The notes beneath the pieces were generated by a model, which had not been told where the DNA came from, did no database searches, and saw nothing but the letters and a program-made list of their open reading frames with translations. This document shows, piece after piece, positions 860-15,273 of a DNA stretch of 24,000 nucleotides. The position numbers were made by a program, and so were the translations under genes. Numbering within the stretch: position 1 is the stretch's first letter; the number at the start of each line of letters is the position of its first letter. Source of the DNA: Haloimpatiens massiliensis (GTDB taxonomy: Bacteria > Bacillota > Clostridia > Clostridiales > Clostridiaceae); NCBI RefSeq assembly GCF_900184255.1, contig NZ_LT854640.1, forward strand, positions 2,238,703-2,262,702, given 5' to 3'.

Positions 860-1171
860 TTATTTTGAGTATTTTTTATGTGTTAAAATCATTTCCTCGG
901 TGATTGCTTTTAATGTTTCTGTTGTCATCAATTGATCTTCTGCATGCATTAAAAGCAATGATACTTTTACTGGTTCGCCCGAAGCTTCTTGCTGAATTAA
1001 TGAACTATGTGATTCATGAGCCTTTAATAAACTTGCCTCTGCATCTTCAACACATTTTTCTGCTAGCTCAAAATTCTCTTCTCTTGATGCTTTTAGAGCC
1101 TGAAATAAAGATGACTTTGCATCTCCTACATTACTAATTAATTGGAATGATATTAATTCTAAATCCTCCAT
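860..1171 (-). CDS. PTS lactose/cellobiose-family EIIA component
   Basis: 103 aa. It has the typical EIIA-Lac/Chb three-helix sequence, including LLMHAEDQLM with the phosphorylatable His. The SD GAGGAG lies 7 nt upstream of the ATG. Confidence 0.9.
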   Translation of the reverse strand: MEDLELISFQLISNVGDAKSSLFQALKASREENFELAEKCVEDAEASLLKAHESHSSLIQQEASGEPVKVSLLLMHAEDQLMTTETLKAITEEMILTHKKYSK

Positions 1172-1828: not shown

Positions 1829-1900
1829 AGCTTTTCCTCCTTGTATAATAATGATGTAGTCATTAAGACTACTCATCTCAATTTAATTGTTTCTATAATA

Positions 1901-1940
1901 GATAACAGAAGAAGGATTTCTTCCTTCATCAGATGTTATC
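1901..1940. other. 40-nt compound hairpin between the cutC start and the IS110 leader
   Basis: GATAACA (1901-1907) pairs with TGTTATC (1934-1940), enclosing GAAGGA-tttct-TCCTTC. I cannot tell whether it belongs to the IS left end or to the native cutC upstream region. Confidence 0.4.
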
Positions 1941-1972
1941 TTAGTTAATTATCATGCTTGACGGTTCCTATA

Positions 1973-2001
1973 TAGACTCCAGACTTTTCATAAAGTATAA
2001 T
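1973..2001 (+). promoter_or_regulatory. Sigma-70-like promoter upstream of the IS110 leader
   Basis: TAGACT (1973-1978), a 17-nt spacer, then TATAAT (1996-2001). The -35 is imperfect and the -10 is consensus. Confidence 0.4.
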
Positions 2002-2004
2002 CTT

Positions 2005-2195
2005 CAAGGATAGGACAAATAATGTTTTCCTCCTTGGGAAGTCAGTATCTGCTGACTCATACCCGTGATTTAGTCAATTAGTCCATTCAATGAGGTTTTA
2101 TGATTCGGCTGGTTGGGAGCCTCAGGCTATACCTGTATAACTCGCAAGGTTGTGTACTCATTAGATGGAAATGGATTCCTATCGGAAAGGAGCTT
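2005..2195 (+). ncRNA. Candidate bridge (seek) RNA in the 5' leader of the IS110 recombinase
   Basis: About 190 nt lie between the TATAAT and the transposase SD, with multiple helices. These are GATAGGA (2009-2015) with TCCTATC (2177-2183); AGTCAG-tatctg-CTGACT (2040-2057); and CCAT-tc-AATGAG (2082-2094) with CTCATT-ag-ATGG (2157-2168), which encloses a 62-nt internal region. IS110-group elements are known to encode a bridge RNA at this position. The guide loops were not identified. Confidence 0.4.
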
Positions 2196-2201
2196 TTGCT
2201 C

Positions 2202-3509: not shown

Positions 3510-3778
3510 TATAATTCCATAAATATAATTTCCGTTTTTTGTTAGTCTAACAAAAGTTTATTAAGGTTACCCTTTTTTAAGATAATAAAAATATTAATTA
3601 TTTTTTTAATTCTTATTGACATTTCTTAGCTGGACTTGTTTTATATGCTTATGAAACTCTCCCGCCACTTGCTTATGCTAGAGTGCAGCTTTGCTGATTA
3701 ATAATTATAAGTTTATTTCATATACCTATGCATACTTATAATATCATAACTGCATTTTAATCTACAGAACTAATTATT

Positions 3779-3926
3779 CTATAATAATACTTTATCTATA
3801 ATAATACTTTATCTATAATAATACTTTATCTATAATACTGCTTTATCTATAACACTGCTTTATCTATAACACTGCTTTACCTATAACACTGCTTTACCTA
3901 TAACACTGCTTAGTCTATAGTGCTAG
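3779..3926. repeat. 17-bp tandem repeat, about 8.6 units, with a left-to-right sequence gradient
   Basis: The units begin at 3779, 3796, 3813, 3830, 3847, 3864, 3881, 3898 and 3915. They run CTATAATAATACTTTAT x3, then CTATAATACTGCTTTAT, CTATAACACTGCTTTAT, CTATAACACTGCTTTAC x2 and CTATAACACTGCTTAGT, and end in a partial CTATAGTGCTAG. Confidence 0.9.
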
Positions 3927-4021: not shown

Positions 4022-4981
4022 CTAATCAAAAGTTATAGGAGATGTTATTCTTTTAGTGTATGCATCTAACCATTCCTGACTTGCTACTTCATAGGTTGTT
4101 TTGCCATCTACATTCTTACATACATAAACTGTAGGTTCTTTACTGTCTGTAGCCACTGAAAAAGAAAATCCATCAATATTAGTTGCTACTCCAAATTCAC
4201 CCTTATTATTTAAACATACTACAGATAAATCTCCTGCTTTCTTTCTCTTTTTAATTAATTTTTCATTCAAATCTTCAACAGCTTTATCTGCAGCTTCCTG
4301 TGGAGTACATCCTTCTTTCATAAGTCTAACTATTTCATAGGAAATGCAGCCCTTCATTAAGTCTTCTCCAAGTCCAGTAGCTGTTGCTCCTCCTACTTCA
4401 CTATCTACGTAGAAACCTGAACCACAAACTGGTGAATCTCCAACTCTTCCTTTTCTTTTCATAAATAACCCACTAGTTGATGTACCAGAAGCCATAGAGC
4501 CATTAGCATCTAATGCTATCATACCAACGGTATCATGACCATCATAAGGACTTAACCCTTTTTCTACAGTTTCTTTAACTCTTTTCTTGTAATGCATTTT
4601 AGCTCTATCTGTTAACATATTAACTCTTTCAAAGCCATTTTTATGAGCATATTCATCTGCTCCAGTTCCTACTAAAAAGCAATTGAATCTTTCGTCACTT
4701 AATTTTTTAGCTACACTTATAGGATTTTTAAAATCTCTTATACCAGCTACTGCTCCTATAGATAAAGTATCCCCATCCATATAAGCTGCATCTAACTCAA
4801 CTTCACCGTTTTCATTTGGCAATCCACCATATCCAACTGATTTATAAAAAGGATAATCCTCAACCATACTAATTGCCTCTTCTATAGCATCTCCTGCTGG
4901 GGCTTTATCTTCTAATGATTTGCATGCCTTAGTTATTCCTTCAACTGCCATTCTCCACGTTGCTATTATTGCCCACTTCAT
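4022..4981 (-). CDS. Asparaginase_2-family Ntn hydrolase (glycosylasparaginase / isoaspartyl peptidase type)
   Basis: 319 aa. It has the autoprocessing motif GHDTVGMIALD with the nucleophile Thr, together with GYGGLPNENGEVELDA and GSGFYVD...GGATATGLGEDLM. GGAGG lies 8 nt upstream of the ATG. Confidence 0.85.
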   Translation of the reverse strand: MKWAIIATWRMAVEGITKACKSLEDKAPAGDAIEEAISMVEDYPFYKSVGYGGLPNENGEVELDAAYMDGDTLSIGAVAGIRDFKNPISVAKKLSDERFNCFLVGTGADEYAHKNGFERVNMLTDRAKMHYKKRVKETVEKGLSPYDGHDTVGMIALDANGSMASGTSTSGLFMKRKGRVGDSPVCGSGFYVDSEVGGATATGLGEDLMKGCISYEIVRLMKEGCTPQEAADKAVEDLNEKLIKKRKKAGDLSVVCLNNKGEFGVATNIDGFSFSVATDSKEPTVYVCKNVDGKTTYEVASQEWLDAYTKRITSPITFD

Positions 4982-5030
4982 AAATTTTTTCCTCCATTCT
5001 TAATTGTTAGTTATTGATACTTATTATCTA

Positions 5031-5046
5031 TGCAATAACTATGCCA
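5031..5046 (-). promoter_or_regulatory. Sigma-54 (-24/-12) promoter for the Ntn-hydrolase gene
   Basis: The minus strand reads TGGCATAGTTATTGCA, with GG and GC in the canonical 12-nt register of TGGCAC-N5-TTGCA. It lies about 50 nt upstream of the ATG at 4981. Confidence 0.8.
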
Positions 5047-5125
5047 ACTATAAAATACACAATGATTTTTCAATTTACTTATGCTTTTAAACACTTTTCC
5101 TAACTAATAATTGATTTTTGTATCA

Positions 5126-5197
5126 AGTGTATTGTAGAATAATACATATACACGTTTACATGGGTTATTTTTCTGCATAGTGTGTTTTATTTACGCA
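5126..5197. promoter_or_regulatory. Putative enhancer (UAS) elements for the LevR-like activator
   Basis: AGTGTATT-N7-AATACATA lies at 5126-5148 and TAGTGTGTTTTATTTACGCA at 5178-5197. Both are repeated with the same 52-53 bp spacing upstream of the second sigma-54 promoter (15202-15273). Confidence 0.55.
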
Positions 5198-5260
5198 ATT
5201 ATTGACACAATAATTTAAAATTAATTACACACTTCATTATTTATAAGGGGATAGGATATT

Positions 5261-6859
5261 ATGAAAAGAATAGATTTAGTATACAATTCTATAAAAACAT
5301 TAGATAAAGGTAGTGGAGTAACCACTATTGAAGTTAGTGAATTATTAAATTTAGAGAGGTCTAATGTAAGTAAAGACTTAAATTTACTAGTTAATGAAGG
5401 CTTATTATATAAAAATAGTTCGAGACCTGTAAAATACTTTTTAAATAATGCTACTAATGTAGATTTTACAGCAAAATCATCTATGGATAACTTAGCTTAT
5501 CTCTATCCATCATTGATACCATCTATAAAACTAGCTAAAACAGCTATTTTGTATCCAGATAACGGAATGAATTGCCTGATTATCGGAGATACTGGCGTTG
5601 GTAAATCCATGCTAGCAAAATTAATGCATGAATATGCTAAATCACTAGATATTAAGAAAAACATGCCTTTTCTACATTTTAACTGCTCAGATTATTCAAA
5701 TAACCCCCAGCTATTAAGTTCTCATCTTTTTGGAGTAAAAAAAGGCACTTTTACTGGCGCAACTGAAAACAGAGCTGGACTAATAGAGCAAGCAGATGGA
5801 GGTATTTTATTCTTAGATGAAATACACAATCTTCCTAGTGAAGGTCAAGAAATGCTTTTTGTCTTTATGGATACAGGCTACTTTAAGAGATTTGGAGAGG
5901 TAACAAAAAAAATTCATTCTTCCGCACGTATAATCTGTGCAACAAATAAGGATATAAACTCTTCTCTTTTAGATACATTTATAAGGAGAATTCCAATAAA
6001 AATTTACATACCGGGATTGGAGGAAAGGCTTTTAGAAGAAAGACTTACCCTTGTAGAATATTTTATAAAGAATGAAAGTATAAAACTAAATAAGCCTATT
6101 TGGGTATCCTATAACACAATGCTTTGTTTACTATCCTATCATTGCCCTTATAATGTAGGTCAATTGAAAAATGATATTAAACTAGCCATTGCTAATGCAT
6201 ATTCCGACTATTTTATTCATAATAAGAAGCAAATTAAAATAAATAGTCCTGATTTACCTGATGAATTAAAAAACATGCTCAATACTCAATTATCCCAAGA
6301 AAGACTTTTATTAGATTCTTTAGATATGGTAGATGGCTATTTTATATATGATAAAAATTCCGTAATAACTAGTCATTCATTTTTAAAGCAGAAGCATCTT
6401 ATTCTTAATAGTTTTAAAAAGCTAATAAAGGATACTGCTAGCAATATGATTAATAAAGAAATAAGCAGTGAAGCTATCATTGACTTTTTTATAGATTATC
6501 TAAATATAATTAAAGATGTTGCTTCAAGTTATCAATACAGCCTTAATAATTCTGCATACGAGGAGTTCTTATCAAGTTTATCCAATTTAGATAATGAACT
6601 TACAAACTACTTTACTGATGATATAGTAAAAAATTTCTTTCGTATTCACCTTGATATGGTATATGACAGAATTAATCTAATGGACTTTGATTCTCTACCT
6701 ACTTTAAATAAAATTAAATCTGTTTTTCCAAACTACTATACTATATCGTTAAGCTTAAAATCTGTTATAGAAAGAGTTTACAATATTAATTTATCTAATA
6801 CAGAAATACTTTTCTTAACTATTTTTACTATATATTTATATGAAAGACCTAGTCTATAA
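5261..6859 (+). CDS. Sigma-54-dependent transcriptional activator, LevR/CelR-like (N-terminal wHTH, AAA+ domain, helical PRD-like C-terminus)
   Basis: 532 aa. It has Walker A GDTGVGKS, a GAFTGA-loop variant GTFTGA, and Walker B ILFLDEIHNL. The HTH is N-terminal rather than a C-terminal Fis-type HTH. It is divergent from a sigma-54 promoter. Confidence 0.85.
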   Translation: MKRIDLVYNSIKTLDKGSGVTTIEVSELLNLERSNVSKDLNLLVNEGLLYKNSSRPVKYFLNNATNVDFTAKSSMDNLAYLYPSLIPSIKLAKTAILYPDNGMNCLIIGDTGVGKSMLAKLMHEYAKSLDIKKNMPFLHFNCSDYSNNPQLLSSHLFGVKKGTFTGATENRAGLIEQADGGILFLDEIHNLPSEGQEMLFVFMDTGYFKRFGEVTKKIHSSARIICATNKDINSSLLDTFIRRIPIKIYIPGLEERLLEERLTLVEYFIKNESIKLNKPIWVSYNTMLCLLSYHCPYNVGQLKNDIKLAIANAYSDYFIHNKKQIKINSPDLPDELKNMLNTQLSQERLLLDSLDMVDGYFIYDKNSVITSHSFLKQKHLILNSFKKLIKDTASNMINKEISSEAIIDFFIDYLNIIKDVASSYQYSLNNSAYEEFLSSLSNLDNELTNYFTDDIVKNFFRIHLDMVYDRINLMDFDSLPTLNKIKSVFPNYYTISLSLKSVIERVYNINLSNTEILFLTIFTIYLYERPSL

Positions 6860-6872
6860 AAGTATATAATCC

Positions 6873-6925
6873 AACCCAGCAATCAGTAATAGTTCATTCA
6901 TTAATCTTTTACTGAGTGCTGGGTT
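6873..6925. terminator. Hairpin between the convergent activator and pepV genes
   Basis: AACCCAGCA (6873-6881) pairs with TGCTGGGTT (6917-6925), with an inner CAGTAA/TTACTG helix. No clean U-tract is present. Confidence 0.45.
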
Positions 6926-7078
6926 ATATATTGATTGAAAAATAAATCAGAAATTTTCTAAATGAAATGAAAAAAGTCCACATTATTGATATTGGATATT
7001 TGCTATTTATAATTTCAATTATTATCTAATATAAATTCTAAAAATCATGCGCAAAGTTGAGATATTAATATTACTAAA

Positions 7079-8464
7079 TTATTTAGCTAATTCATAAATT
7101 GCTTTAGCATAAATTTTAATACATTTTTCAAGTAAGGATATTTCTATAAATTCATTAGCTTTATGAGCTAAATCCTCACTACCTTTAAATAAGGCTCCAA
7201 AAGCTACTGTATTAGGCATTAATTTAGCATAAGTTCCTCCACCTGTAGATAAAAGTTCCGCTTCCTCCCCTACTATATCTTCATATGATTTTTTTAAAGC
7301 TTTTATCATTTTATGCTCCTTTGGGAAATGCAATGGTGGATTATGATTTCCCATATGAAAAGTTAAATTAGTATCTTTTATTTTCTCATTAATATTGTTT
7401 ACTATACTATCACTAGAAACTGTAACTGGATACCTAATGTTAAATCTCATGCGTATTTCTGAACTATTACCATTAATAATTCCCAAGTTTAAAGTTAAAT
7501 TTCCAGACTCCTCATCCCAAAAATTTATTCCTAATTTACTTCCACTATAATCCTTTCCAATTAACTGTGAAAAATCCTTTAAAAACATTGTAAAGCTATC
7601 TTGAAAATCTAATATTTCATTTAAGTATAATATCATATTAGCTATAGCATTTTCTCCTGCTTCTGGTGTACTTCCATGAGAAGCTTTTCCTCTGCTTATT
7701 ATAATAATGTGATTTTCATGAGATTCTAAATCTATTCTATACTTTTCCTTTAAACCTTCATCTTTAAATACCTGAAGTAATTTAGAATTGCCATCATGTA
7801 TTATTTTACACTCACAATAATCAGGAACTATATTAGATTTTTTGCCACCTTTTATATAGTCTATTTTATAGCCACAAAGATTATTTTCTAACTTTTGAAC
7901 TAATTCAAAGGTAAAAATACCCTTTTCAGAGGTTACTATTGGAAAGTATGCATCTGGAGTGAAACAATATTTAGGTGCTTTTTCTTTCTTTAAATAATAG
8001 TCTATATCCTCTGTACCAGATTCTTCATTAGTTCCAAAAATAATTCTAACTTTTTTGGATAATTTAACATTAGAATCCTTTAATAGTTTTGCTGCATAAA
8101 GAGCTGCCATTATTGGCCCTTTATCATCTATGGCTCCTCTAGCGTATAATTTTTCATCTTTTATTATAGGTTCAAAGGAATTTGTATTCCAACCATTGCC
8201 TTCCGGCACCACATCTATATGTCCTAATACTCCTACGTATTCATCACCCTGTCCAAACTCCGCATAGCCTACATAGTTATCTAAATTAACTGTATTAAAT
8301 CCATAGGATTTAGCTATGTCCAATACACAGTTTAATCCTTTTGCTACTCCCTTACCAAAAGGATTAAATTCATCAGGCACATCTTTAATTGTTTTTTCCT
8401 TTAATACAATTTTTAAATCCTCTAAAAAACTATTATTTATTTTAATATCTTTAATAAATTCCAT
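7079..8464 (-). CDS. pepV: M20-family dipeptidase, PepV/Sapep type
   Basis: It has GHIDVVPEGNGW and LYARGAIDDKGP, and ends in GGGTYAK...AFGALF. I place the start at ATG 8464 (MEFIKDIK), with GGAGAG 8 nt upstream. The tracked start at 8473 is a GTG. Confidence 0.85.
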   Translation of the reverse strand: MEFIKDIKINNSFLEDLKIVLKEKTIKDVPDEFNPFGKGVAKGLNCVLDIAKSYGFNTVNLDNYVGYAEFGQGDEYVGVLGHIDVVPEGNGWNTNSFEPIIKDEKLYARGAIDDKGPIMAALYAAKLLKDSNVKLSKKVRIIFGTNEESGTEDIDYYLKKEKAPKYCFTPDAYFPIVTSEKGIFTFELVQKLENNLCGYKIDYIKGGKKSNIVPDYCECKIIHDGNSKLLQVFKDEGLKEKYRIDLESHENHIIIISRGKASHGSTPEAGENAIANMILYLNEILDFQDSFTMFLKDFSQLIGKDYSGSKLGINFWDEESGNLTLNLGIINGNSSEIRMRFNIRYPVTVSSDSIVNNINEKIKDTNLTFHMGNHNPPLHFPKEHKMIKALKKSYEDIVGEEAELLSTGGGTYAKLMPNTVAFGALFKGSEDLAHKANEFIEISLLEKCIKIYAKAIYELAK

Positions 8465-8494
8465 AATACTCACTCTCCTAAATTTTTCGTAAAG

Positions 8495-9598
8495 CTATCT
8501 ATTATTATCTTTTATTTCTTCTATCAATTTCCAATTTAATATTTTACAAAACTCTGCAATAACCTTTACTGTTTGTACATAATCTTTTCGATGAATTATT
8601 AATCTAGGTGAATGCATATATCTTGTTGGTATAGATAATGTCATTGTTACAATACCCTGAAATGTTTTGTGTATATTTCCTGCATCCGTGCCGCCTGCAG
8701 TCATACAATCATAGTTTATATCTAATCCTAATTTCTCAGAAATTTCTTCTAACTTTTTAATTAATCCTCTATTCGCTAGTGTTGAAGAATCTAGTATACT
8801 AAGTATTACTCCTCCACCTAGTTTTACTTCCCCTTTATCCATTGGAGTATCCTTAGCTGTTGTCACATCTAATGCAAAAGCAATATCTGGTTTTACAACC
8901 TGTGTGGAAGTTCTAGCTCCTCTTAATCCCACTTCTTCTTGAACTGTGCCAACTGCATAAATATTTGCACAATGCTCAACGTTTTGAAGCTCCTTCAATA
9001 CATCTATCGCCACTGCCACACCTATTCTGTCATCCCACGCCTTACCTGCTAAATAATTTGGATTATTCATAATCTTAAATTTAGAATTAGGCGTTATCAT
9101 ATCTCCAATTTGTATTCCCAATTCTTCTGCCTGTTCTTTTGTATCTATCCCTAAATCCATAAACAAATCAACAGGCTTAATTACTTTTGCCTTCTCTGAA
9201 ACTGACATTCCATGTGGTGCACGACTTCCAATGATACCAGTAATTTTTTTACCTTTTGATGTGGTTAAAATCATTTCCTGTGAAGGCAATACATGTCCCC
9301 ACCATCCCCCTACAGGTAATATTTTTATATAACCTTTGTCATCAATATCTCTTACCATAAATCCTACTTCATCCATATGTCCAGCAATCATAACCCTTGG
9401 TCCATTATTCTTACCTTTTTTTAGTCCAATAATCGATCCTAGGTTGTCATATAAAATTTCATCAGCATAATTATCTAAATACTTTTTAACAACTCTACTA
9501 ACTTCTTTCTCACAACCTGATATTCCATCAGCTTCACTTAACTCCTTTAGCATTTGTAAATCTACATTGCCATATGGTTCTATCCTATTTTCACTCAT
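8495..9598 (-). CDS. M42-family metallopeptidase (FrvX/YsdC/PepA-like aminopeptidase)
   Basis: It has IAGHMDEVGFMV, GKAWDDRIGVAV and VQEEVGLRGA. I place the start at ATG 9598 (MSENRIEPYG), with GGAGG 7 nt upstream. Confidence 0.9.
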   Translation of the reverse strand: MSENRIEPYGNVDLQMLKELSEADGISGCEKEVSRVVKKYLDNYADEILYDNLGSIIGLKKGKNNGPRVMIAGHMDEVGFMVRDIDDKGYIKILPVGGWWGHVLPSQEMILTTSKGKKITGIIGSRAPHGMSVSEKAKVIKPVDLFMDLGIDTKEQAEELGIQIGDMITPNSKFKIMNNPNYLAGKAWDDRIGVAVAIDVLKELQNVEHCANIYAVGTVQEEVGLRGARTSTQVVKPDIAFALDVTTAKDTPMDKGEVKLGGGVILSILDSSTLANRGLIKKLEEISEKLGLDINYDCMTAGGTDAGNIHKTFQGIVTMTLSIPTRYMHSPRLIIHRKDYVQTVKVIAEFCKILNWKLIEEIKDNNR

Positions 9599-9652
9599 GA
9601 GCTTTCCTCCAACACATTTATTCATATATTTTATACACTAAATATATGAATT

Positions 9653-10729
9653 TTATCTATTTTCTGACTTGAATTTTTCAATAGTTTCTTCATCTAATGA
9701 TTTAATTACTTCTATGATCGCTTCTTTTGCAGCTATGTAATCATCCACATGAATAATTGAACTATTTGTATTTATATTTCTAGCACATATATTAGTAGTT
9801 AAAGTTGGGCAACCTATAAGTAATTTATGAATCCATCCAGCATCTCCATCTCCCATGGAGTAAAAATATTGATGCTTTATATCTTCCGATTTACAAATAT
9901 TAACTAAATGATTTAAAAGCGTTCTATTAGGCATCATAGATTTATCATAATAATTAATTAATACACCTTCTCCTAACTTACCCATTGATTCTTTATTACC
10001 ATTCACATCATTTGCTCCTAAACAATCCATTACAATGCCTAAATCAGGCTTAATTAGATTAGTAGAAGTTTGAGCGCCTCTTAATCCAACTTCTTCTTGC
10101 ACTGTACATCCAATATATAAATCCACATCTAAATCCACATCTTTTAACGCTTCTAATATTTCAATACCCATAACACAACCATAACGATTGTTCCAAGCTT
10201 TAGAAATAATTCTTTTATCTCCTGCCAACACTTCAAATTGCCCATCAGCTACAATTGAGTCTCCTAACTTTATTCCTAATTTATCAATTTCCTCTTTGCT
10301 AGTTGCCCCAATATCTACTAATAGTTTACTCACTTCTATTGCCTTAGACTTGTCTCTTTCAGAGCCATTATCTATTATACTTCCCTTAAATTCCTCGCCC
10401 TCTCTGTTTATTAATCTAACTCTTTGAGCTAATAAAGCTTGATTTTCAATATTGCCTAAAGGTAATATTTTAATTAATCCCATATCTGTAATTCCATTAA
10501 CTATAAATCCCGCTTCATCCATATGCCCACAGATCATAACTCTCTTAGCATTTTCTTTTCCACAAGATTTTACTGCAAAAACTGAACCTAAATTATCGAA
10601 AATTATTTTATCTGTGTATTTTCTATAATGCTTTTGCAATGCCTTTGAAATGTATTTTTCATTACCTGAAATTCCGATTGTTTGAGTAATTTCTCTCATT
10701 AATTTTAGTGTGCTATCACTTAATTTCAT
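9653..10729 (-). CDS. M42-family metallopeptidase, paralogue of the adjacent gene
   Basis: It has ICGHMDEAGFIV, SKAWNNRYGCVM and VQEEVGLRGAQTS. An AGGGG SD lies upstream. Confidence 0.9.
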   Translation of the reverse strand: MKLSDSTLKLMREITQTIGISGNEKYISKALQKHYRKYTDKIIFDNLGSVFAVKSCGKENAKRVMICGHMDEAGFIVNGITDMGLIKILPLGNIENQALLAQRVRLINREGEEFKGSIIDNGSERDKSKAIEVSKLLVDIGATSKEEIDKLGIKLGDSIVADGQFEVLAGDKRIISKAWNNRYGCVMGIEILEALKDVDLDVDLYIGCTVQEEVGLRGAQTSTNLIKPDLGIVMDCLGANDVNGNKESMGKLGEGVLINYYDKSMMPNRTLLNHLVNICKSEDIKHQYFYSMGDGDAGWIHKLLIGCPTLTTNICARNINTNSSIIHVDDYIAAKEAIIEVIKSLDEETIEKFKSENR

Positions 10730-10756
10730 ATTTCTTTACCCCTTTTCTTTCATGTA

Positions 10757-10790
10757 TGTCTTATTAATATGTGTGCGTCTTATTAATATG
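10757..10790. repeat. Two 14-15-bp direct repeats (GTCTTATTAATATG) 19 bp apart in an intra-operon gap
   Basis: TGTCTTATTAATATG at 10757-10771 and CGTCTTATTAATATG at 10776-10790. Confidence 0.6.
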
Positions 10791-10802
10791 AACTAATAAC
10801 CT

Positions 10803-10820
10803 TTTTGTGGTTTAATCATA
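10803..10820. repeat. Solo copy of the H-element terminus
   Basis: TTTTTGTGGTTTAATCAT matches the H1 right terminus TTTTTGTGGTTGAATCAT (838-855) at 17/18. The adjacent sequence does not match the H arm. Confidence 0.5.
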
Positions 10821-10852
10821 ACCTTAATAAAAATAATTTTGTTTATAATATT

Positions 10853-11977
10853 TTATTTTGCTAATTTATAAATTGCCTGAGTGTATATTTTTGCATTTAA
10901 AATAATATCGCTAATGTCCATATATTCATTAGGATTATGTGCAATACCCTTTTGTCCTGGAAAAGATGGTCCAAAGGGTACAATGTTAGGCATAAGTTTC
11001 GCATAAGTTCCACCTGTAGTTGTAACTGGAGTACCGTCTAAACAGGTAACTTCCTCATATGCTTCCTGCAAAGACTTAACTAAAAAACAATCTTTTTCAA
11101 ACCTAACTGGATTATAATTTTGTAATAATTCTATTTGAAAATTAGTTGAAATTTTAGATTCTATTTGTTCAATTATTTCTTCTATAGTGCATACAGCTGG
11201 ATAACTTAAGTCAAATTGAAAATTTAAACAACCTTCCTTCATATCTAAATAGTACTTTCGCATCTCCATAGCTCCAAACTCTTTATCATTATAATTAATT
11301 CCTAATCTATCGCCATCTGATTTACTAGATAAAAAGTAATCGTTAACCATATTAAAAAATTCTTGCGTTAATTCTTCATAATTTTCTTTATACACCTTTG
11401 TTCCTATCTTAATTTTAGCCCTGCCCCTCTCACCATAAACCACTGGATACTTGCAATCAGGCGTAAACCCCATAATTGGAGGTTTTTCCTTTGTCAAATA
11501 ATAATTTAAATCTTTAAATCCACTTTCTTCATCAGTACCAAATATAATGCGTACTGGTTTGTTCAATTTTAAATTACATTCCTTTATGACATATAATGCA
11601 TATAGAGCACTAATAATTGGTCCTTTGTTGTCTAGTACCCCTCTACTATAAATTTTGCCATCTTCAACGTGTCCACTAAATGGTGGGTTATTCCATCCCT
11701 CTTCTATAGGAACCACATCTAAATGTCCTAAAACTCCTATATAATCTTCTCCTTCACCTAATTGTGCATATCCTATATATCCATCAATATTTTTTGTTTT
11801 AAAACCTAATTCTTTAGAAATTTCTAGTGCCTTCATTAGTGCATTATTAACATTTTCTCCAAAGGGTGCCTGTGGCTTTGCTTCACCCTTTATACTTGGT
11901 ATTTTTACCACTTCTATAATATGTTCTATTAGACTATCTTTTAATTCATCTATTTTATTATTTAAAATTTTTTCCAT
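10853..11977 (-). CDS. M20-family peptidase (short PepV/ArgE/DapE-like)
   Basis: It has GHLDVVPIEEGW, IYSRGVLDNKGP, IFGTDEESG and TTGGTYAK. No recognisable SD precedes the ATG at 11977. Confidence 0.75.
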   Translation of the reverse strand: MEKILNNKIDELKDSLIEHIIEVVKIPSIKGEAKPQAPFGENVNNALMKALEISKELGFKTKNIDGYIGYAQLGEGEDYIGVLGHLDVVPIEEGWNNPPFSGHVEDGKIYSRGVLDNKGPIISALYALYVIKECNLKLNKPVRIIFGTDEESGFKDLNYYLTKEKPPIMGFTPDCKYPVVYGERGRAKIKIGTKVYKENYEELTQEFFNMVNDYFLSSKSDGDRLGINYNDKEFGAMEMRKYYLDMKEGCLNFQFDLSYPAVCTIEEIIEQIESKISTNFQIELLQNYNPVRFEKDCFLVKSLQEAYEEVTCLDGTPVTTTGGTYAKLMPNIVPFGPSFPGQKGIAHNPNEYMDISDIILNAKIYTQAIYKLAK

Positions 11978-12071
11978 ACTATGCTTGTGCTTTAAATCTA
12001 ATATTTTATATTCACATAATTTGTATATTTTATAAAAGCACTACCTCCATATTTCATATTCTTATGTGAAA

Positions 12072-12098
12072 AGGTAGCCTAACTAAATTAGACTACCT
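12072..12098. other. Intra-operon hairpin with T-tracts on both sides; possible attenuator, partial terminator or processing site
   Basis: AGGTAG..CTAA..TTAG..CTACCT. On the minus strand it is followed by TTTTCAC, on the plus strand by ATTTTTT. It lies 6 nt downstream (in the minus-strand sense) of the GrdB-N-like stop. Confidence 0.4.
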
Positions 12099-12103
12099 AT
12101 TTT

Positions 12104-12625
12104 TTAATAACATATTTTCTTTATATAATCACTTATATCTCCGCCGTCAACTTTCTTCTTAGCTAAAGCACAAATATTTCTAAGTGATTCACTTAACCCT
12201 GTTCCACCCTTTTTAGGCATAACTACAATATTTACTAAATCCTTATATTCTGAGATAGTTTCTTCATTTTCCTTTGACATTGCAGCTATAGCTGGAATAT
12301 CAGTTTTTTCATTTATTTCATGAGCTAAAACTGCACACATTTTTGCATATCCAGCATAATTAAAAGCTGGTCCACATATAACTACATCTGGATTGATTTT
12401 TTTTACCATGGCAGTCATTTTTAATTTTACCTCATCTTCATTTTTTTTAAAAAATCCATCTCCACAATATAAACAAGCTACAACCTTTCCATCTACTTGT
12501 TTTAATGCCGGTTCTAACATACTTGCTGAACCTATAGCCATAGCTTTACCACCTAAAGGCAAATTAGGGTTTTCCTTACCACCTTGCCCTGCTTGGGTTT
12601 GGTCAAATATCATTAAAACCTTCAT
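12104..12625 (-). CDS. Stand-alone GrdB-N-terminal-like protein (glycine/sarcosine/betaine reductase component B family, N-domain only)
   Basis: 173 aa. IFDQTQAGQGGKENP...CGDGFF..NEDEV...MVKKINPDVVICGPAFNYAGY...DIPAIAAMSKEN matches my memory of GrdB N-termini (NQFFAGIGGEEKAD...CGD.YF.EN.DEA...PD..AGPAFNAGRYG...IP..TGM..EN). There is no selenocysteine-containing C-domain. Confidence 0.6.
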   Translation of the reverse strand: MKVLMIFDQTQAGQGGKENPNLPLGGKAMAIGSASMLEPALKQVDGKVVACLYCGDGFFKKNEDEVKLKMTAMVKKINPDVVICGPAFNYAGYAKMCAVLAHEINEKTDIPAIAAMSKENEETISEYKDLVNIVVMPKKGGTGLSESLRNICALAKKKVDGGDISDYIKKICY

Positions 12626-12636
12626 TGCTTTACCTC

Positions 12637-13986
12637 CTAAAGGTCATCAAAGGATAAATCATCAAATGAAATATCTTCTTCGTCTGATGCGTTATTCTTT
12701 GCTTCTTCTTCATCTTTTAAGTATTGTTTATCTAACATTTTTATAAATGGATAGTAAATTAAACATCCAAGTACTAGCAATCCTATTTGCCATACTCCTG
12801 CAAATAAGCTTCCTGTGGATAGGTATCCTGAAAATCCTATTGGAGTAGTCCATGGCAATGATACCCCTGTAGTATAAGGAATAATTCCCGCCTTAGTTGC
12901 AAATGTAGAAAGCATCAAATTGATTATTGGAACTCCAACAAAAGGAACAATTAATATTGGATTTAACACGATAGGTAATCCGAAAATAATTGGTTCATTT
13001 ATTCCAAATATTCCTGGAACAATTGACAACTTACCTAATTGTGTAATTCTCTTTGATTTACAGAATAATAACATTACTATAACTAGTGAAAGAGTACTTC
13101 CTCCCCCTCCAAAACCTGTAAAGAAGTTTGAAAATGGGTCTGTAAATATGTTTGGCAATGCCTTTCCTGCTTCAAATGCTTCCAAGTTTTCAATTGTTAA
13201 TATTTTTAAAATTGGTGAAAATACTGAATTTGCAACTGCTGGACCATTGATTCCAAAGAACCAGAAAACTGTACATACTAAGCTATAAATAACTTGTGCT
13301 ATTAATGTATTTCCTGCTCCTTGCAGTGGTGTTTGTAATACTGTATATATAAAATTATGTGCTGATTCAAATGGTGTAAGCTCAAATCCTACACGTACAA
13401 GGAAAAATATCCCAATAACTATTGCACTAGGAATTAAAGCTGCAAATGAATCACATACTGCTGGTGGAACTCCATCTGGCATTTTAATTGTCCAGCCTTT
13501 TTTATAAGCCCAAGTAAACACATATACTGATAATATAGATACAATAAGTGCCAAAAATATACCGTTAGAACCTACGTATTCAAAACCTAGTGCACTCATA
13601 GTTTCTGGTCCTTTAACACCTTCAAATGGAATTCTTGTTGGCATAAGAATAATGAAAGCAACCATTGCTACCACAGCACCTTGAATTTTATCCCCTTTTA
13701 GTTCTCTAGCATAAGCATATCCTGTACCCACACAAGTTAATAAACCAATTATATTAAATGTTGCTCTAGATACATTTGTAAACCATGATTCCCAACCTTC
13801 TCCAAGAAATCTTGTCCAGAACTCTGACCAACCTGGTACTGGGAAATTAGCTATTAATAAGAAAATAGATCCTACTATAAGTAATGGCGTCGTTATTAAA
13901 AATCCATCACGAACTGCAACTAAAACTTTATTTCTTCCAAGCTTATCTGCAATTGGAACTAATACTTTTTCTAACGCTGCAAACAT
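12637..13986 (-). CDS. PTS lactose/cellobiose-family EIIC permease
   Basis: 449 aa, polytopic. The N-terminus ALEKVLVPIADKLGRNKVLVAVRDGF and the FGINEPIIFGLPIVLNP motif are typical of EIIC-Lac/Chb. It ends in an unusual acidic tail, DEEDISFDDLSFDDL. Confidence 0.9.
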   Translation of the reverse strand: MFAALEKVLVPIADKLGRNKVLVAVRDGFLITTPLLIVGSIFLLIANFPVPGWSEFWTRFLGEGWESWFTNVSRATFNIIGLLTCVGTGYAYARELKGDKIQGAVVAMVAFIILMPTRIPFEGVKGPETMSALGFEYVGSNGIFLALIVSILSVYVFTWAYKKGWTIKMPDGVPPAVCDSFAALIPSAIVIGIFFLVRVGFELTPFESAHNFIYTVLQTPLQGAGNTLIAQVIYSLVCTVFWFFGINGPAVANSVFSPILKILTIENLEAFEAGKALPNIFTDPFSNFFTGFGGGGSTLSLVIVMLLFCKSKRITQLGKLSIVPGIFGINEPIIFGLPIVLNPILIVPFVGVPIINLMLSTFATKAGIIPYTTGVSLPWTTPIGFSGYLSTGSLFAGVWQIGLLVLGCLIYYPFIKMLDKQYLKDEEEAKNNASDEEDISFDDLSFDDL

Positions 13987-13997
13987 TTTAAGCCCCC

Positions 13998-14321
13998 CTA
14001 TTTTTTATTTTTTTTAATGAGTACAATTGCCTTTTTTAAGACCTTTTCTCCATCCATCATTCCATAATCTGCTGAATCGATTACTGATATTGGAGTGTTG
14101 ATATCTTTAAATCTTTCCACAGTTTCTTCATATAAATATTTAACCTGTGGTCCTAACAATATACAATCTGGGTTAAAAGTATCAATGATTTCCTGCAACT
14201 TACCATGTGGAAATGCCTTAACCTCAATTGGAAGTTTATGAGCATCTGCTACATTTTGCATTTTTTGTGCTAATAAACTCGTAGACATACCTTGACTACA
14301 GAATAGATATATTTTTTTCAT
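13998..14321 (-). CDS. PTS lactose/cellobiose-family EIIB
   Basis: MKKIYLFCSQGMSTSLL carries the active-site Cys. I place the start at ATG 14321, with an AGGTGG SD 5 nt upstream. The tracked start at 14330 is a GTG lying inside that SD. Confidence 0.9.
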   Translation of the reverse strand: MKKIYLFCSQGMSTSLLAQKMQNVADAHKLPIEVKAFPHGKLQEIIDTFNPDCILLGPQVKYLYEETVERFKDINTPISVIDSADYGMMDGEKVLKKAIVLIKKNKK

Positions 14322-14426
14322 AGTTTCCACCTACCTTCTTAAATGTTATTTTATTTATATATAATAAAAAAATAAATAATCTAATTAACTTTCACCATTT
14401 AAATTCTTATTATTTGTATTTTATGC

Positions 14427-15017
14427 CTAAACTTTAACTACTTTAGTTTTACCGATATAATCATGAATCATCCTTTTTTCAGCTGTTGCATACATTAATA
14501 TAACTGATACTATGGTAATTATAGCACCTATGTACTCAAGTACTACGTAGTATCTATTAGAATTTAATCCTAATCGAATCATTTGACGTAAATATTCACT
14601 GCTAGAAACAATTCTACCTTCCACAATCATTATTCCAATAATTTCACGTCTAAACATCGTTTTCAAATTAATATCCTCATTATTCATTCTAATTACCTTT
14701 ATCCCTAATAGTTTCTTACCCAGTGTTTGTCCCTTATACAAAAATGTTGGTATTAGAAGATAATATGTAGAGGATGCTAGTATTGCTAAAATTCCAGCCA
14801 GCATGCCACTTTTAAATGACATTGCTGATAAAGAACTAGCAATAGTAGCTTGTCCCGTATCCATGCTATAAATAAGCATTACAGGTATTCCTGCTAATAC
14901 AGACGCTAAATACCAGTCAATCATCATAGCAACTGCTCTTTTCCATAGACTTACATCTTTATACTCCTTCTTCTTTTTATTCTTTTCACTTAACAATTTC
15001 TTTTTGATTTTAATCAT
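14427..15017 (-). CDS. RDD-family membrane protein, first gene of the sigma-54 operon
   Basis: 196 aa. It has WKRAVAMMIDWYLASVLAGIPV plus 3-4 predicted TM segments and a C-terminal RMIHDYIGKTKVV, which is typical RDD-domain architecture. A GGAGAG SD is present. Confidence 0.65.
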   Translation of the reverse strand: MIKIKKKLLSEKNKKKKEYKDVSLWKRAVAMMIDWYLASVLAGIPVMLIYSMDTGQATIASSLSAMSFKSGMLAGILAILASSTYYLLIPTFLYKGQTLGKKLLGIKVIRMNNEDINLKTMFRREIIGIMIVEGRIVSSSEYLRQMIRLGLNSNRYYVVLEYIGAIITIVSVILMYATAEKRMIHDYIGKTKVVKV

Positions 15018-15116
15018 TATACTCTCCTATTTTTTAAATAGCATTAATTTAAATATGTATACCTTATCATTAACTATATTGGTTACATTATTGTGCTTTA
15101 CACATATAATTTAAAT

Positions 15117-15132
15117 AGCAATTGTTGTGCCA
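15117..15132 (-). promoter_or_regulatory. Sigma-54 (-24/-12) promoter for the RDD-PTS-peptidase operon
   Basis: The minus strand reads TGGCACAACAATTGCT in the canonical register, about 100 nt upstream of the ATG at 15017. Confidence 0.8.
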
Positions 15133-15201
15133 ATTGCTATTCAACACTGAAATATCAGATTTTTCAATGGTTCTACATGTAATATTTCATTTTAAAGCTT
15201 T

Positions 15202-15273
15202 AGTGTATTATATTTAAATACACTTCTCTATTACTTTTTATTTTTATTTCGTTAGTGTGTTATCTTTTGCATA
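15202..15273. promoter_or_regulatory. Putative UAS elements matching those at 5126-5197
   Basis: AGTGTATT-N7-AATACACT (a perfect 8-bp inverted repeat) lies at 15202-15224 and TAGTGTGTTATCTTTTGCATA at 15253-15273. A further ATAGTGTATCA lies at about 15282-15292. Confidence 0.55.

What the first reader, a model, noticed from the sequence alone, without database searches (positions are those of the whole stretch)
4022..15273. Sigma-54 regulon joining a Lac/cellobiose-family PTS to four metallopeptidases, a GrdB-N-like protein and a glycosylasparaginase-type hydrolase
An 8-gene minus-strand operon runs from 15017 to 7079: RDD protein, EIIB, EIIC, GrdB-N-like, M20, M42, M42 and PepV-type M20. It is driven by a canonical sigma-54 promoter. 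An Asparaginase_2 Ntn hydrolase sits behind a second sigma-54 promoter, divergent from a LevR-like activator. M42 peptidases are known to ride with PTS operons of unknown function (E. coli frvX, sgcX, ypdE). Sigma-54/LevR-type control of PTS systems for Amadori compounds is also known (the Salmonella gfr glucoselysine/fructoselysine operon). However, four peptidases plus a glyco- or isoaspartyl-amidase plus a sugar PTS is not a combination I know to be characterised. The gene content suggests that a sugar-conjugated amino acid or peptide is imported and phosphorylated, for example GlcNAc-Asn-peptide stubs from N-glycoproteins, or glycated or isoaspartyl peptides. It would then be trimmed by the amino- and dipeptidases and deamidated. 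The substrate assignment is pure inference.
Basis: partly seen in the sequence, partly recalled or inferred. Interest (0 to 1): 0.8.

Follow-up and report, generated by a model that had tools for sequence, protein, structure and literature searches.

The report
Sigma-54-controlled GlcNAc-asparagine PTS utilisation locus
This Clostridium gene cluster is an expanded, differently regulated relative of the Enterococcus faecalis "ega" system, which imports and breaks down GlcNAc-asparagine stubs left over from N-glycoproteins, so its core function is already known and only the extra peptidases and the sigma-54 control are new.

Summary

The locus extends further than reported. The glycosylasparaginase operon continues into cutC and a Lac-family EIIA gene. 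In this strain an IS110 element at 1845-3634 separates them from the hydrolase gene.

I anchored a neighbourhood survey on the GrdB-like gene and examined 79 genome loci:
- an EIIC gene is adjacent in 79;
- the glycosylasparaginase-type gene is present in 71;
- an M20 peptidase is present in 70;
- the M42 pair is present in only 24;
- the full window set is present in 5.

The closest known system is the E. faecalis ega locus (Combret et al. 2023). It contains GntR, a dipeptidase, glycosylasparaginase EgaG, Lac/Cel EIIB and EIIC, and a GrdB-like "oxidoreductase", and it uses GlcNAc-L-Asn.

What differs here:
- a conserved short LevR-type activator (HTH, AAA+, one PRD) with two sigma-54 promoters and a shared upstream inverted repeat, seen in 12 species;
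- an M42 pair made of one intact and one degenerate subunit;
- a second PepV;
- cutC and an RDD gene.

Verdict: a new variant of a known kind, of moderate interest.

The parts
15202..15222 (-). Upstream activator site 1: inverted repeat TGTAT-N11-ATACACT, about 90 nt upstream of the -24 element. Extra AYACACT half-sites lie near 15254-15260 and 15284-15290.
   Evidence: The motif is found at about -100 in 15 of 22 orthologous promoter regions. Background is 0.06 per kb.
15117..15132 (-). Sigma-54 promoter P1 (TGGCACaacaaTTGCT), 100 nt upstream of the RDD start codon
   Evidence: An equivalent element lies upstream of the RDD or EIIB gene in 11 of the 12 activator-containing loci; in the twelfth (L032) the contig starts inside the EIIC gene.
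14427..15017 (-). RDD-family membrane protein, first gene of the operon; role unknown
   Evidence: Pfam PF06271, 1.4e-21. It is the first gene of the cassette in 62 of 79 loci.
13998..14330 (-). PTS EIIB, Lac/Cel family, with the active-site Cys
   Evidence: 51% identical to the Enterococcus ega-like EIIB.
12637..13986 (-). PTS EIIC, Lac/Cel family
   Evidence: TIGR00410, 416 bits. 51% identical to the Enterococcus ega-like EIIC. It falls in the EIIC clade linked to M42 pairs.
12104..12625 (-). GrdB-related protein without selenocysteine, always found directly after the EIIC gene; function unknown
   Evidence: NF041545, 260 bits. Adjacent to an EIIC gene in 79 of 79 loci. The AlphaFold model (pLDDT 96) has a flavodoxin-like alpha/beta fold with no informative PDB match.
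10853..11977 (-). Short M20 (Sapep/PepV-type) dipeptidase lacking about 88 lid residues; metal ligands retained
   Evidence: Orthologues have a median length of 372 aa and are the usual partner of the glycosylasparaginase gene, present in 65 of 79 loci.
9653..10729 (-). M42 paralogue with degenerate metal site (bridging Asp to Asn, terminal His to Asn): probable pseudo-peptidase subunit
   Evidence: 21 of 24 orthologues are degenerate.
8495..9625 (-). M42 (TET-type) aminopeptidase with the full catalytic set
   Evidence: 22 of 22 orthologues carry the full HDDEEDH set.
7079..8473 (-). Full-length PepV dipeptidase, last gene of the operon
   Evidence: NF005591, 518 bits against a cut-off of 435.
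5261..6859 (+). Short LevR-type sigma-54 activator: winged HTH, AAA+ domain (GDTGVGKS, GTFTGA, FLDEIH) and one PRD with one conserved His
   Evidence: Orthologues are 522-535 aa in 11 other loci and conserve these motifs.
5126..5146 (-). Upstream activator site 2: inverted repeat TGTATtattctacaATACACT, 100 nt upstream of the -24 element. An extra half-site lies near 5179-5185.
5031..5046 (-). Sigma-54 promoter P2 (TGGCATagttaTTGCA), 50 nt upstream of the glycosylasparaginase start codon
   Evidence: Conserved upstream of Asp2, or of GrdB-like-2 plus Asp2, in 11 of the 12 activator-containing loci; none matched the search pattern in L010.
4022..4981 (-). Cytoplasmic glycosylasparaginase-type Ntn hydrolase (EgaG/AsnA2 homologue). 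HDT autoprocessing site with Thr151; no signal peptide.
3778..3919 (.). 17-bp x 8.4 tandem repeat in the spacer between the glycosylasparaginase gene and cutC
1845..3634 (+). IS110-family insertion (transposase gene 2100-3509) immediately upstream of the cutC ribosome-binding site; it interrupts the second operon
1220..1828 (-). CutC-family TIM-barrel protein; role unknown. It follows the glycosylasparaginase and M20 genes in most loci.
   Evidence: PF03932, 5.8e-69. Present in 51 of 79 loci.
860..1171 (-). PTS EIIA, Lac/Cel family, which completes the phosphorelay
   Evidence: PF02255, 3.8e-32. Present in 57 of 79 loci.
719..822 (.). Long hairpin (36-nt arms, 92% complementary) downstream of the EIIA gene; possible end of the operon

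Best explanation
This is a Clostridium version of the enterococcal glycosylasparaginase (ega) system, which catabolises GlcNAc-beta-Asn, the stub left when N-glycoproteins are degraded.

Proposed pathway, with shown and inferred steps marked:
1. The Lac/Cel-family PTS (EIIC, EIIB and the EIIA gene downstream of cutC) takes up the glyco-amino acid, or a short glycopeptide. It presumably phosphorylates the GlcNAc at C6. This step is inferred from the family.
2. The intact M42 aminopeptidase (with its degenerate M42 partner) and the two M20 dipeptidases free the alpha-amino and alpha-carboxyl groups of the Asn. This step is inferred.
3. The cytoplasmic glycosylasparaginase cleaves the sugar-amide bond, giving L-aspartate and 1-amino-GlcNAc(-6P). 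The latter decays to GlcNAc(-6P) and ammonium. This is inferred from homology to characterised enzymes.

Regulation. Both operons are transcribed from sigma-54 promoters. These are activated by the divergently encoded short LevR-type activator, which binds the inverted repeat TGTAT-N11-AYACACT about 100 nt upstream of each promoter. The co-conservation of these elements is shown; the binding itself is inferred. The single PRD probably couples activator activity to the PTS.

The RDD, GrdB-like and CutC proteins are conserved parts of the cassette with unknown roles.
For: - Gene identities are confirmed.
- The hydrolase is closest to solved glycosylasparaginases (1.6e-63 over its full length) rather than to isoaspartyl peptidases (about 1e-37).
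- The catalytic residues T151, T169, R179, D182, T202 and G203 are kept.
- It is 61% identical to an Enterococcus protein that NCBI names N4-(beta-GlcNAc)-L-asparaginase, which sits in a GntR-M20-Asp2-EIIB-EIIC locus.
- That arrangement matches the published E. faecalis ega locus, which uses GlcNAc-L-Asn through a Lac/Cel PTS.
- Synteny: in 79 loci anchored on the GrdB-like gene, EIIC is present in 79, Asp2 in 71 and an M20 in 70.
- An aspartate ammonia-lyase gene is a neighbour in 7 loci and a malic enzyme gene in 4.
- Glycosylasparaginases need free alpha-NH2 and alpha-COOH groups on the Asn (PMC6960285), which gives the peptidases a rationale.
- Regulation: 3 promoter matches against 0.05 expected. 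Of the 12 loci with the activator, 10 have both promoters; L010 and L032 each have one. Only two loci without a detected activator (L020, L024) have an RDD-upstream site. The inverted repeat occurs at about -100 in 15 of 22 promoter regions. The activator architecture is conserved.
Against: - No experiment has been done on this organism.
- E. faecalis sequences themselves could not be retrieved, so the homology rests on other Enterococcus and Vagococcus loci and on published gene descriptions.
- The window's EIIC falls in a different clade (linked to M42 pairs) from the Enterococcus EIIC that was compared, at only 51% identity. Transporter specificity could therefore differ.
- In L. casei the linked pepV gene was dispensable for growth on the glyco-amino acid.
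- E. faecalis ega has no M42 genes, so the peptide-trimming step is unproven.
- The IS110 insertion may uncouple cutC and EIIA from the promoter in this strain.
- Three conserved genes (RDD, GrdB-like, cutC) have no place in the model.
Confidence: 0.7

Rival explanations
1. The system handles a different sugar-amino acid or sugar-peptide conjugate than GlcNAc-Asn. Candidates include longer N-glycopeptide stubs, chitobiosyl-Asn, or another beta-linked glycosylamide. The clade of EIIC linked to M42 pairs would then have its own specificity.
For: - The window's EIIC lies in a separate clade from the Enterococcus ega-like EIIC.
- M42 pairs occur only with that clade.
- MupG-family 6-phospho-glycosidase genes lie downstream in 16 loci, and YdjC plus GH4 genes in 5.
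Against: - The hydrolase is one orthologous group across both EIIC clades, with invariant active-site and TWRMA motifs.
- Vagococcus has Asp2-EIIB-EIIC-GrdB-like-M42-M42 with a GntR regulator and an M20 gene, in the ega gene order.
Confidence: 0.15
2. The locus salvages isoaspartyl (beta-aspartyl) peptides. The Ntn hydrolase would act like E. coli IaaA, and the peptidases would finish the degradation.
For: The best NCBIfam hit is beta-aspartyl-peptidase PRK10226, but at 120 bits against a cut-off of 567. Peptidases are abundant in the locus.
Against: - The hydrolase is much closer to glycosylasparaginases (218 against 133 bits).
- It has the TW motif of the sugar-binding N-terminus rather than the plant-type pattern.
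- A sugar PTS is strictly linked to it.
Confidence: 0.05
3. The locus uses Amadori or glycated amino acids, like the Salmonella gfr operon, which is also under sigma-54 and LevR-type control.
For: Both have a sigma-54 promoter, a PRD-containing activator and a PTS. Nie et al. list a GfrR group in Clostridia.
Against: - The PTS is of the Lac/Cel family, not the mannose family.
- No SIS-domain deglycase or FrlB-type gene was seen in any of the 79 loci.
- The hydrolase is amide-specific.
Confidence: 0.04
4. This is an ordinary cellobiose/chitobiose PTS that merely sits beside unrelated peptidase genes.
For: The EIIC scores 416 bits on the cellobiose IIC model, just under its cut-off of 434.
Against: - There is no phospho-beta-glycosidase gene in the operon.
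- The linkage of EIIC, the GrdB-like gene, Asp2 and M20 is conserved in about 70 of 79 species-level loci across several families.
- Shared promoters and a shared upstream inverted repeat join the two operons.
Confidence: 0.04

Closest known systems
Enterococcus faecalis ega (enterococcal glycosylasparaginase) locus. Combret et al., Res Microbiol 175:104169 (pmid 37977353). The paper was not readable here; its content is taken from PMC11549559 and PMC11976118.
   Same: Both have a glycosylasparaginase, Lac/Cel-family EIIB and EIIC, an M20 dipeptidase, and a GrdB-like 'putative oxidoreductase' after the EIIC gene. Both have two transcription units. In E. faecalis the substrate is GlcNAc-L-Asn, taken up by the PTS. 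Identity to an Enterococcus ega-like locus is 61% for Asp2, 51% for EIIB and 51% for EIIC.
   Different: - The regulator here is a sigma-54 activator with two -24/-12 promoters, not GntR.
- This locus adds an M42 pair (one active, one degenerate), a second full-length PepV, cutC, an RDD gene and its own EIIA. E. faecalis borrows CelA1 as its EIIA.
- The M20 here is a 374-aa form with a shortened lid, against about 431 aa in Enterococcus.
- The EIIC belongs to a different clade.
Lactobacillus casei alf-2 cluster (Becerra et al. 2020, PMC6960285)
   Same: A cytoplasmic, self-processing glycosylasparaginase (AsnA2) is genetically linked to a PepV-type M20. The pathway yields Asp and GlcNAc.
   Different: Uptake is by an MFS permease and needs a 6'-fucose. 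The cluster has a fucosidase, a sugar kinase and a GntR regulator. It has no PTS, no GrdB-like gene and no M42 genes.
LevR/CelR-type PRD-containing sigma-54 activators (B. subtilis LevR; C. acetobutylicum CelR; groups CelR, LevR, AtlR and GfrR in PMC6615313)
   Same: All have an N-terminal HTH, an AAA+ sigma-54 interaction domain and a PRD. All control a PTS operon from a -24/-12 promoter with an upstream activator site.
   Different: This activator is only about 530 aa with a single PRD. It has no EIIA- or EIIB-like domains and matches positions 112-567 of the 938-position DagR model. It is not one of the four PRD-activator groups catalogued for Clostridiales.
Elizabethkingia (Flavobacterium) glycosylasparaginase and human AGA
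   Same: This is the best match among solved structures (1.6e-63). The Ntn autoprocessing site and the Asp-binding residues are conserved.
   Different: The protein here is cytoplasmic with no signal peptide. It has an invariant TWRMA motif in place of TWNFG and a conserved C-terminal extension.
M42 genes riding with PTS operons in E. coli (frvX, sgcX, ypdE)
   Same: An M42 TET-type peptidase is encoded inside a PTS operon.
   Different: Here the M42 genes come as a pair with one degenerate member, and they sit in a locus whose substrate class can be named. The E. coli comparison rests on my own knowledge and was not tested here.
Salmonella gfr operon (glucoselysine/fructoselysine)
   Same: Sigma-54 and LevR-type control of a PTS for a sugar-amino acid conjugate.
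   Different: The gfr operon uses a mannose-family PTS and deglycases. It has no Ntn hydrolase and no peptidases.

Membership tests
ega-type GlcNAc-Asn PTS utilisation locus | Glycosylasparaginase (EgaG/AsnA2-type Ntn hydrolase) encoded in the locus | tested here: met
   PF01112, 9e-67. The best PDB match is glycosylasparaginase at 1.6e-63. 61% identical to the Enterococcus orthologue. Catalytic residues are kept.
ega-type GlcNAc-Asn PTS utilisation locus | Lac/Cel-family EIIB and EIIC genes linked to the hydrolase | tested here: met
   The linkage is conserved across loci. The EIIC is, however, in a sister clade to the Enterococcus EIIC that was compared.
ega-type GlcNAc-Asn PTS utilisation locus | M20 dipeptidase and a GrdB-like 'oxidoreductase' gene | tested here: met
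ega-type GlcNAc-Asn PTS utilisation locus | GntR-family regulator | tested here: not met
   There is no GntR gene in the window. A sigma-54 activator takes its place. GntR is seen in Enterococcus, Vagococcus, Ligilactobacillus and Companilactobacillus loci.
ega-type GlcNAc-Asn PTS utilisation locus | Locus-dependent growth on GlcNAc-L-Asn | not testable with these tools
   Needs culture and mutants.
ega-type GlcNAc-Asn PTS utilisation locus | Direct sequence orthology to the E. faecalis Ega proteins | not tested
   E. faecalis sequences did not appear in the listed hits, and the source paper is not held. Other Enterococcaceae loci were used as proxies.
LevR-type sigma-54 enhancer-binding protein | AAA+ sigma-54 interaction domain with a GAFTGA-type loop | tested here: met
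   PF00158, 1.3e-41. GTFTGA, Walker A and Walker B motifs are conserved in 12 orthologues.
LevR-type sigma-54 enhancer-binding protein | Two PRDs plus EIIA- and EIIB-like regulatory domains (about 900 aa or more) | tested here: not met
   There is a single PRD (residues 448-522) and no EIIA or EIIB domain. Orthologues are 522-535 aa.
LevR-type sigma-54 enhancer-binding protein | A cognate -24/-12 promoter and an upstream activator site at its target operon | tested here: met
   This is sequence evidence only.
M42 (TET) aminopeptidase | Complete two-metal site (H, D, bridging D, EE, D, H) | tested here: met
   8495-9625 has the full HDDEEDH set, as do 22 of 22 orthologues.
M42 (TET) aminopeptidase | Complete two-metal site, tested in the second paralogue (9653-10729) | tested here: not met
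   The bridging Asp is Asn and the terminal His is Asn. 21 of 24 orthologues are degenerate.
PepV/Sapep M20 dipeptidase | Full-length catalytic and lid domains above the curated cut-off | tested here: met
   7079-8473 scores 518 bits on NF005591 against a cut-off of 435.
PepV/Sapep M20 dipeptidase | Complete lid domain, tested in the 374-aa paralogue | tested here: not met
   It matches Sapep residues 25-227 and 315-488 only. It passes the Sapep subfamily cut-off (367 against 208) but not the PepV equivalog cut-off (378 against 435).
Salmonella gfr-type Amadori PTS operon | Mannose-family PTS and SIS-domain deglycases | tested here: not met
   The PTS is of the Lac/Cel family and no deglycase gene is present.

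The most novel reading that the evidence does not exclude
In the clade that carries the M42 pair, the PTS imports short N-glycopeptide stubs by their GlcNAc handle, not only the free glyco-amino acid. A hetero-oligomeric TET particle, built from one active and one catalytically dead M42 subunit, would act together with a lid-shortened M20 and PepV to trim the phosphorylated glycopeptide. This would free the Asn for the glycosylasparaginase. The strictly conserved but unassigned GrdB-like and CutC proteins would carry out new chemistry or chaperoning on the phospho-glycosylamine product or at the transporter. That would be a peptide-importing PTS pathway with two new enzyme functions.
Probability: 0.25. 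Interest if true: 0.75.

Novelty: new variant of a known kind. Interest (0 to 1): 0.45.

Why it matters
GlcNAc-Asn is what remains after N-glycoproteins are stripped, and its use contributes to E. faecalis infection according to the title of Combret et al..

The survey here shows that a larger cassette built on the same core is widespread. It is conserved in about 70 of the 79 species-level genomes examined, drawn from 339 that carry the GrdB-like gene. The groups include Clostridium, Tissierellia, Butyricicoccus, Lachnospiraceae, Erysipelotrichaceae and Lactobacillales. The cassette order is RDD, EIIA, EIIB, EIIC, GrdB-like, glycosylasparaginase, short M20, CutC.

The cassette has been placed under three different regulators: a sigma-54 activator, an MtlR-like PRD activator, or GntR.

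The survey also attaches a substrate context to three orphan families (GrdB-like without selenocysteine, CutC, RDD) and to an M42 pair with a pseudo-enzyme member. Their roles therefore become testable. The core biology itself is not new.

Tried and rejected
- Direct comparison with E. faecalis. I tried to retrieve its Ega proteins using Vagococcus Asp2 and GrdB-like queries. E. faecalis was not among the 120 hits listed in either search.
- The Combret paper is not held. A literature search for the gene names EgaG and egaC returned only unrelated words. Supplementary tables of PMC11549559 are not held.
- CutC. A literature search found nothing linking it to PTS or GlcNAc metabolism.
- Sigma-70 promoter and terminator scans were at chance level. 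They say nothing about internal promoters.
- Truncated activator. I considered that the 532-aa activator was a truncated LevR and rejected this, because 11 orthologues in other species are 522-535 aa.
- Chance promoter matches. Allowing 2 mismatches gives 11 hits against 7 expected. The exact pattern is what is significant.
- Hairpin at 700-860. I tested whether it is a second TwoAYGGAY RNA. Only hairpin-type chance hits were found.

Full report
**Source and anatomy**

The window is 96-99% identical to two contigs of Clostridium sp. KNHs214, so it comes from a close relative of that strain.

On the minus strand, in order of transcription:

| Gene | Coordinates | Note |
|---|---|---|
| RDD protein | 14427-15017 | first gene |
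| Lac/Cel EIIB | 13998-14330 | active-site Cys present |
| Lac/Cel EIIC | 12637-13986 | |
| GrdB-related protein, no selenocysteine | 12104-12625 | NF041545, 260 bits against a cut-off of 175 |
| M20, 374 aa | 10853-11977 | |
| M42 | 9653-10729 | |
| M42 | 8495-9625 | |
| PepV | 7079-8473 | 518 bits against a cut-off of 435 |

A 532-aa sigma-54 activator lies at 5261-6859 (+). It is divergent from an Asparaginase_2 gene at 4022-4981 (-).

**Promoters**

The exact pattern TGGCAY-N5-TTGCW occurs three times in 24 kb against 0.05 expected. All three sites are intergenic, correctly oriented and beside an activator gene. Two serve this locus, at 15117-15132 and 5031-5046. The third, at 18547-18562, serves an unrelated alcohol dehydrogenase gene with its own GAF-PAS activator.

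Downstream of the hydrolase gene lie an IS110 transposase gene, then cutC and a Lac-family EIIA gene. Near-identical metagenome contigs and the KNHs214 assembly run Asp2-cutC-EIIA with no IS. The empty site shows that the element (1845-3634) landed exactly in front of the cutC ribosome-binding site. The second operon is therefore Asp2-cutC-EIIA, and its EIIA completes the phosphorelay. In this strain, expression of cutC and EIIA from the sigma-54 promoter would need read-through of 1.8 kb of antisense IS.

**Gene-neighbourhood conservation**

I aligned 20 GrdB-like proteins and used the alignment to fetch loci from one genome per species. 339 genomes carry a relative; the best 80 loci were kept with 10-kb flanks. 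I labelled their ORFs with the window's proteins. Counts among the 79 loci L009-L087 are:

| Gene | Loci (of 79) |
|---|---|
| EIIC next to the GrdB-like gene | 79 |
| Asp2 | 71 |
| any M20 | 70 |
| EIIB | 68 |
| RDD | 62 |
| EIIA | 57 |
| CutC | 51 |
| M42 pair | 24 |
| full window set (M42 pair, short M20, PepV, Asp2) | 5 |

- The commonest order is RDD-EIIA-EIIB-EIIC-GrdB-like-Asp2-short M20-CutC, seen in 33 loci with many near variants.
- The organisms include Clostridium, Tissierella, Romboutsia, Butyricicoccus, Lachnospiraceae, Catenibacterium and other Erysipelotrichaceae, Vagococcus, Ligilactobacillus and Companilactobacillus.
- The five loci with the full set are KNHs214, Tissierella simiarum, C. 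cadaveris and two Clostridium MAGs.
The four-peptidase expansion is a lineage-specific elaboration.
- A metagenome contig 99.6% identical across Asp2 and the activator has a different 374-aa M20 directly beside the activator in place of PepV. The peptidase block is modular.

**What the core is**

- The hydrolase matches solved glycosylasparaginases over its full length (1.6e-63, 218 bits). This is far better than its match to isoaspartyl peptidases or plant-type asparaginases (about 1e-37).
- It has the HDT autoprocessing site and the Thr/Arg/Asp/Thr-Gly substrate-binding residues.
- It has no signal peptide.
- The literature search led to Combret et al. on the E. faecalis 'glycosylasparaginase locus'. 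The paper itself is not held. Two later papers describe the locus.
  - OG1RF_10933 is a GntR regulator and 10934 a dipeptidase.
  - 10935 is EgaG, 10936 and 10937 are the EIIB and EIIC of a lactose/cellobiose PTS, and 10938-39 is a split 'putative oxidoreductase' cited to the GrdB paper.
  - The locus has two promoters.
  - GlcNAc-L-Asn is taken up by this PTS, with CelA1 serving as EIIA.
- An Enterococcus chromosome shows GntR-M20-Asp2-EIIB-EIIC.
- Vagococcus fluvialis shows M20-GntR-Asp2-EIIB-EIIC-GrdB-like-M42-M42.
- Identity between the window proteins and the Enterococcus locus is 61% (Asp2), 51% (EIIB), 51% (EIIC) and 33-39% (M20).
- L. casei provides a second characterised case. A cytoplasmic glycosylasparaginase, AsnA2, is linked to pepV. 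Uptake there is by an MFS permease, and pepV was dispensable.
- That paper also recalls that glycosylasparaginases need free alpha-amino and alpha-carboxyl groups on the Asn. This is the logical reason for linked peptidases.
- Aspartate ammonia-lyase genes (7 loci) and malic enzyme genes (4 loci) beside the cassette fit aspartate as a product.

**Regulation**

- The activator has a winged HTH, an AAA+ domain (Walker A GDTGVGKS, GTFTGA loop, FLDEIH) and a single PRD.
- It aligns only to positions 112-567 of the 938-position DagR model.
- It is not truncated. Eleven orthologues in other species are 522-535 aa and conserve the same motifs, including one PRD histidine.
- Ten of the 12 loci with this activator have a TGGCA-N7-TGC element upstream of both the RDD/EIIB operon and the Asp2 operon. 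L010 has only the first, and L032, whose contig starts inside EIIC, has only the second. Loci with no detected activator lack such sites at those positions. The exceptions are L020, whose contig ends before the activator position, and L024, where none lies within the flank.
- About 100 nt upstream of the -24 element, 15 of 22 promoter regions carry the inverted repeat TGT(A/G)T-N11-A(T/C)AC(A/T)CT. The background rate is 0.06 per kb. Further AYACACT half-sites lie near -139. In the window the repeats are at 15202-15222 and 5126-5146.
- This is good comparative evidence for one activator driving both operons. It is not proof of binding.
- The other loci use a different regulator. A 636-aa MtlR/LicR-like PRD activator (HTH, Mga, two PRDs, EIIA-2) is found in 48 loci. 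GntR is found in 3 loci plus Enterococcus.
- The catalogue of Clostridiales sigma-54 regulons lists only four groups of PRD-containing activators: CelR, LevR, AtlR and GfrR. None covers this locus.

**The peptidases**

- The M42 at 8495-9625 keeps the full metal and catalytic set, as do 22 of 22 orthologues.
- The M42 at 9653-10729 has Asn in place of the bridging Asp and Asn in place of the terminal His. 21 of 24 orthologues are degenerate at one or more of these positions.
- The pair therefore looks like one active and one pseudo-enzyme subunit, perhaps forming a mixed TET particle. This is an inference.
- The 374-aa M20 matches Sapep/PepV residues 25-227 and 315-488, so it lacks about 88 lid residues while keeping the metal ligands. 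This short form (median 372 aa) is the usual partner of the hydrolase gene across loci.

**Unassigned conserved parts**

- The GrdB-like protein gives a confident model (pLDDT 96) with a flavodoxin-like alpha/beta fold, but no informative structural or sequence match.
- CutC and the RDD protein also have no assigned role.
- The PTS-linked hydrolases share an invariant TWRMA motif where the secreted Flavobacterium enzyme has TWNFG. They also share a conserved C-terminal extension. Arg10 might bind a 6-phosphate; this is speculation.

**Caveats**

- A neighbour-joining tree splits the EIICs into two clades. One is followed by GrdB-like-Asp2-M20-CutC and includes the Enterococcus EIIC that I compared. 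The other contains the window and every M42-pair locus. Transporter specificity could therefore differ, for example free glyco-amino acid against glycopeptide.
- I could not place the E. faecalis transporter itself in the tree.
- Nothing here is experimental for this organism.

**Verdict**

The functional reading is largely right. The core is a known kind of system. The sigma-54/short-activator control, the active-plus-degenerate M42 pair, the extra PepV, cutC and RDD make this a new variant. It is of moderate interest.

Noticed in passing
window 1845-3634 (transposase gene 2100-3509, +): An IS110-family element is inserted exactly in front of the cutC ribosome-binding site. The empty site reads ...AAAACAAG|GAGGAAAAG.... 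In KNHs214 contig L008 the same element sits at the junction between the EIIC stop codon and the GrdB-like gene. It is absent from contig L009 and from the metagenome contigs. The IS is therefore active in this lineage and has hit this locus at two positions.
   Followed up: partly
window 9653-10729, and orthologues in 24 loci: The upstream M42 paralogue has lost metal ligands or its catalytic base in 21 of 24 species. Its partner is intact in 22 of 22. This looks like a conserved pseudo-peptidase and peptidase pair.
   Followed up: yes
window 3778-3919: A 17-bp unit (TCTATAATACTGCTTTA) is repeated 8.4 times in the Asp2-cutC spacer. Overlapping alignments of the metagenome contigs suggest that copy number varies.
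   Followed up: partly
window 21415-21569 (+); related repeat at 700-860; KNHs214 locus L009 11790-12023: A TwoAYGGAY RNA (RF01731, 52 bits against a gathering score of 43) lies upstream of pdxT. A related hairpin-forming repeat lies downstream of the EIIA gene. KNHs214 carries an extra copy of about 200 bp between the short M20 and M42 genes, at window position ~10800. The element appears to move or vary between strains.
   Followed up: partly
window 17078-21242: A second sigma-54 module is present. It comprises a GAF-PAS-AAA+-HTH_8 activator (18724-20775), the promoter TGGCATagtaaTTGCT (18547-18562) and a zinc alcohol dehydrogenase gene (17390-18466). The whole block is missing from the KNHs214 assembly, so it is a strain-variable island. 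It resembles the AdhR/SadR-type alcohol regulons listed for Clostridium.
   Followed up: partly
L001 52-1176 against window 6926-11977: A metagenome contig 99.6% identical over Asp2 and the activator has a 374-aa M20 directly beside the activator. That M20 is 75% identical at the DNA level to window 10853-11977. M42-M42-PepV are absent at that position. The break in similarity is at window 6926.
   Followed up: partly
L015 15106-15624, L016 14689-15207, L019 8430-8915, L021 14697-15182: C. nitritogenes, C. baratii and two related Clostridium loci carry a second, divergent GrdB-like paralogue (33-40% identity). It is the first gene of the sigma-54-driven Asp2 operon.
   Followed up: no
48 of the 79 loci, e.g. 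L052 5104-7014: The same catabolic cassette is controlled elsewhere by a 636-aa MtlR/LicR-like PRD activator, or by GntR in Enterococcaceae and some lactobacilli. Three unrelated regulators serve one conserved pathway.
   Followed up: partly
16 loci, e.g. L084 14528-15619; 30 loci, e.g. L084 13481-14347: MupG-family (6-phospho-N-acetylmuramidase-like) genes and YitT/DUF2179 membrane protein genes recur inside or just after the cassette. Their roles are unexplained.
   Followed up: no
window 16341-17015 (+), 21739-23273 (-): The flanking genes are ordinary: an ECF transporter S component, and pdxS/pdxT for pyridoxal phosphate synthesis. No riboswitch was found upstream of the ECF gene at Rfam gathering thresholds.
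   Followed up: partly
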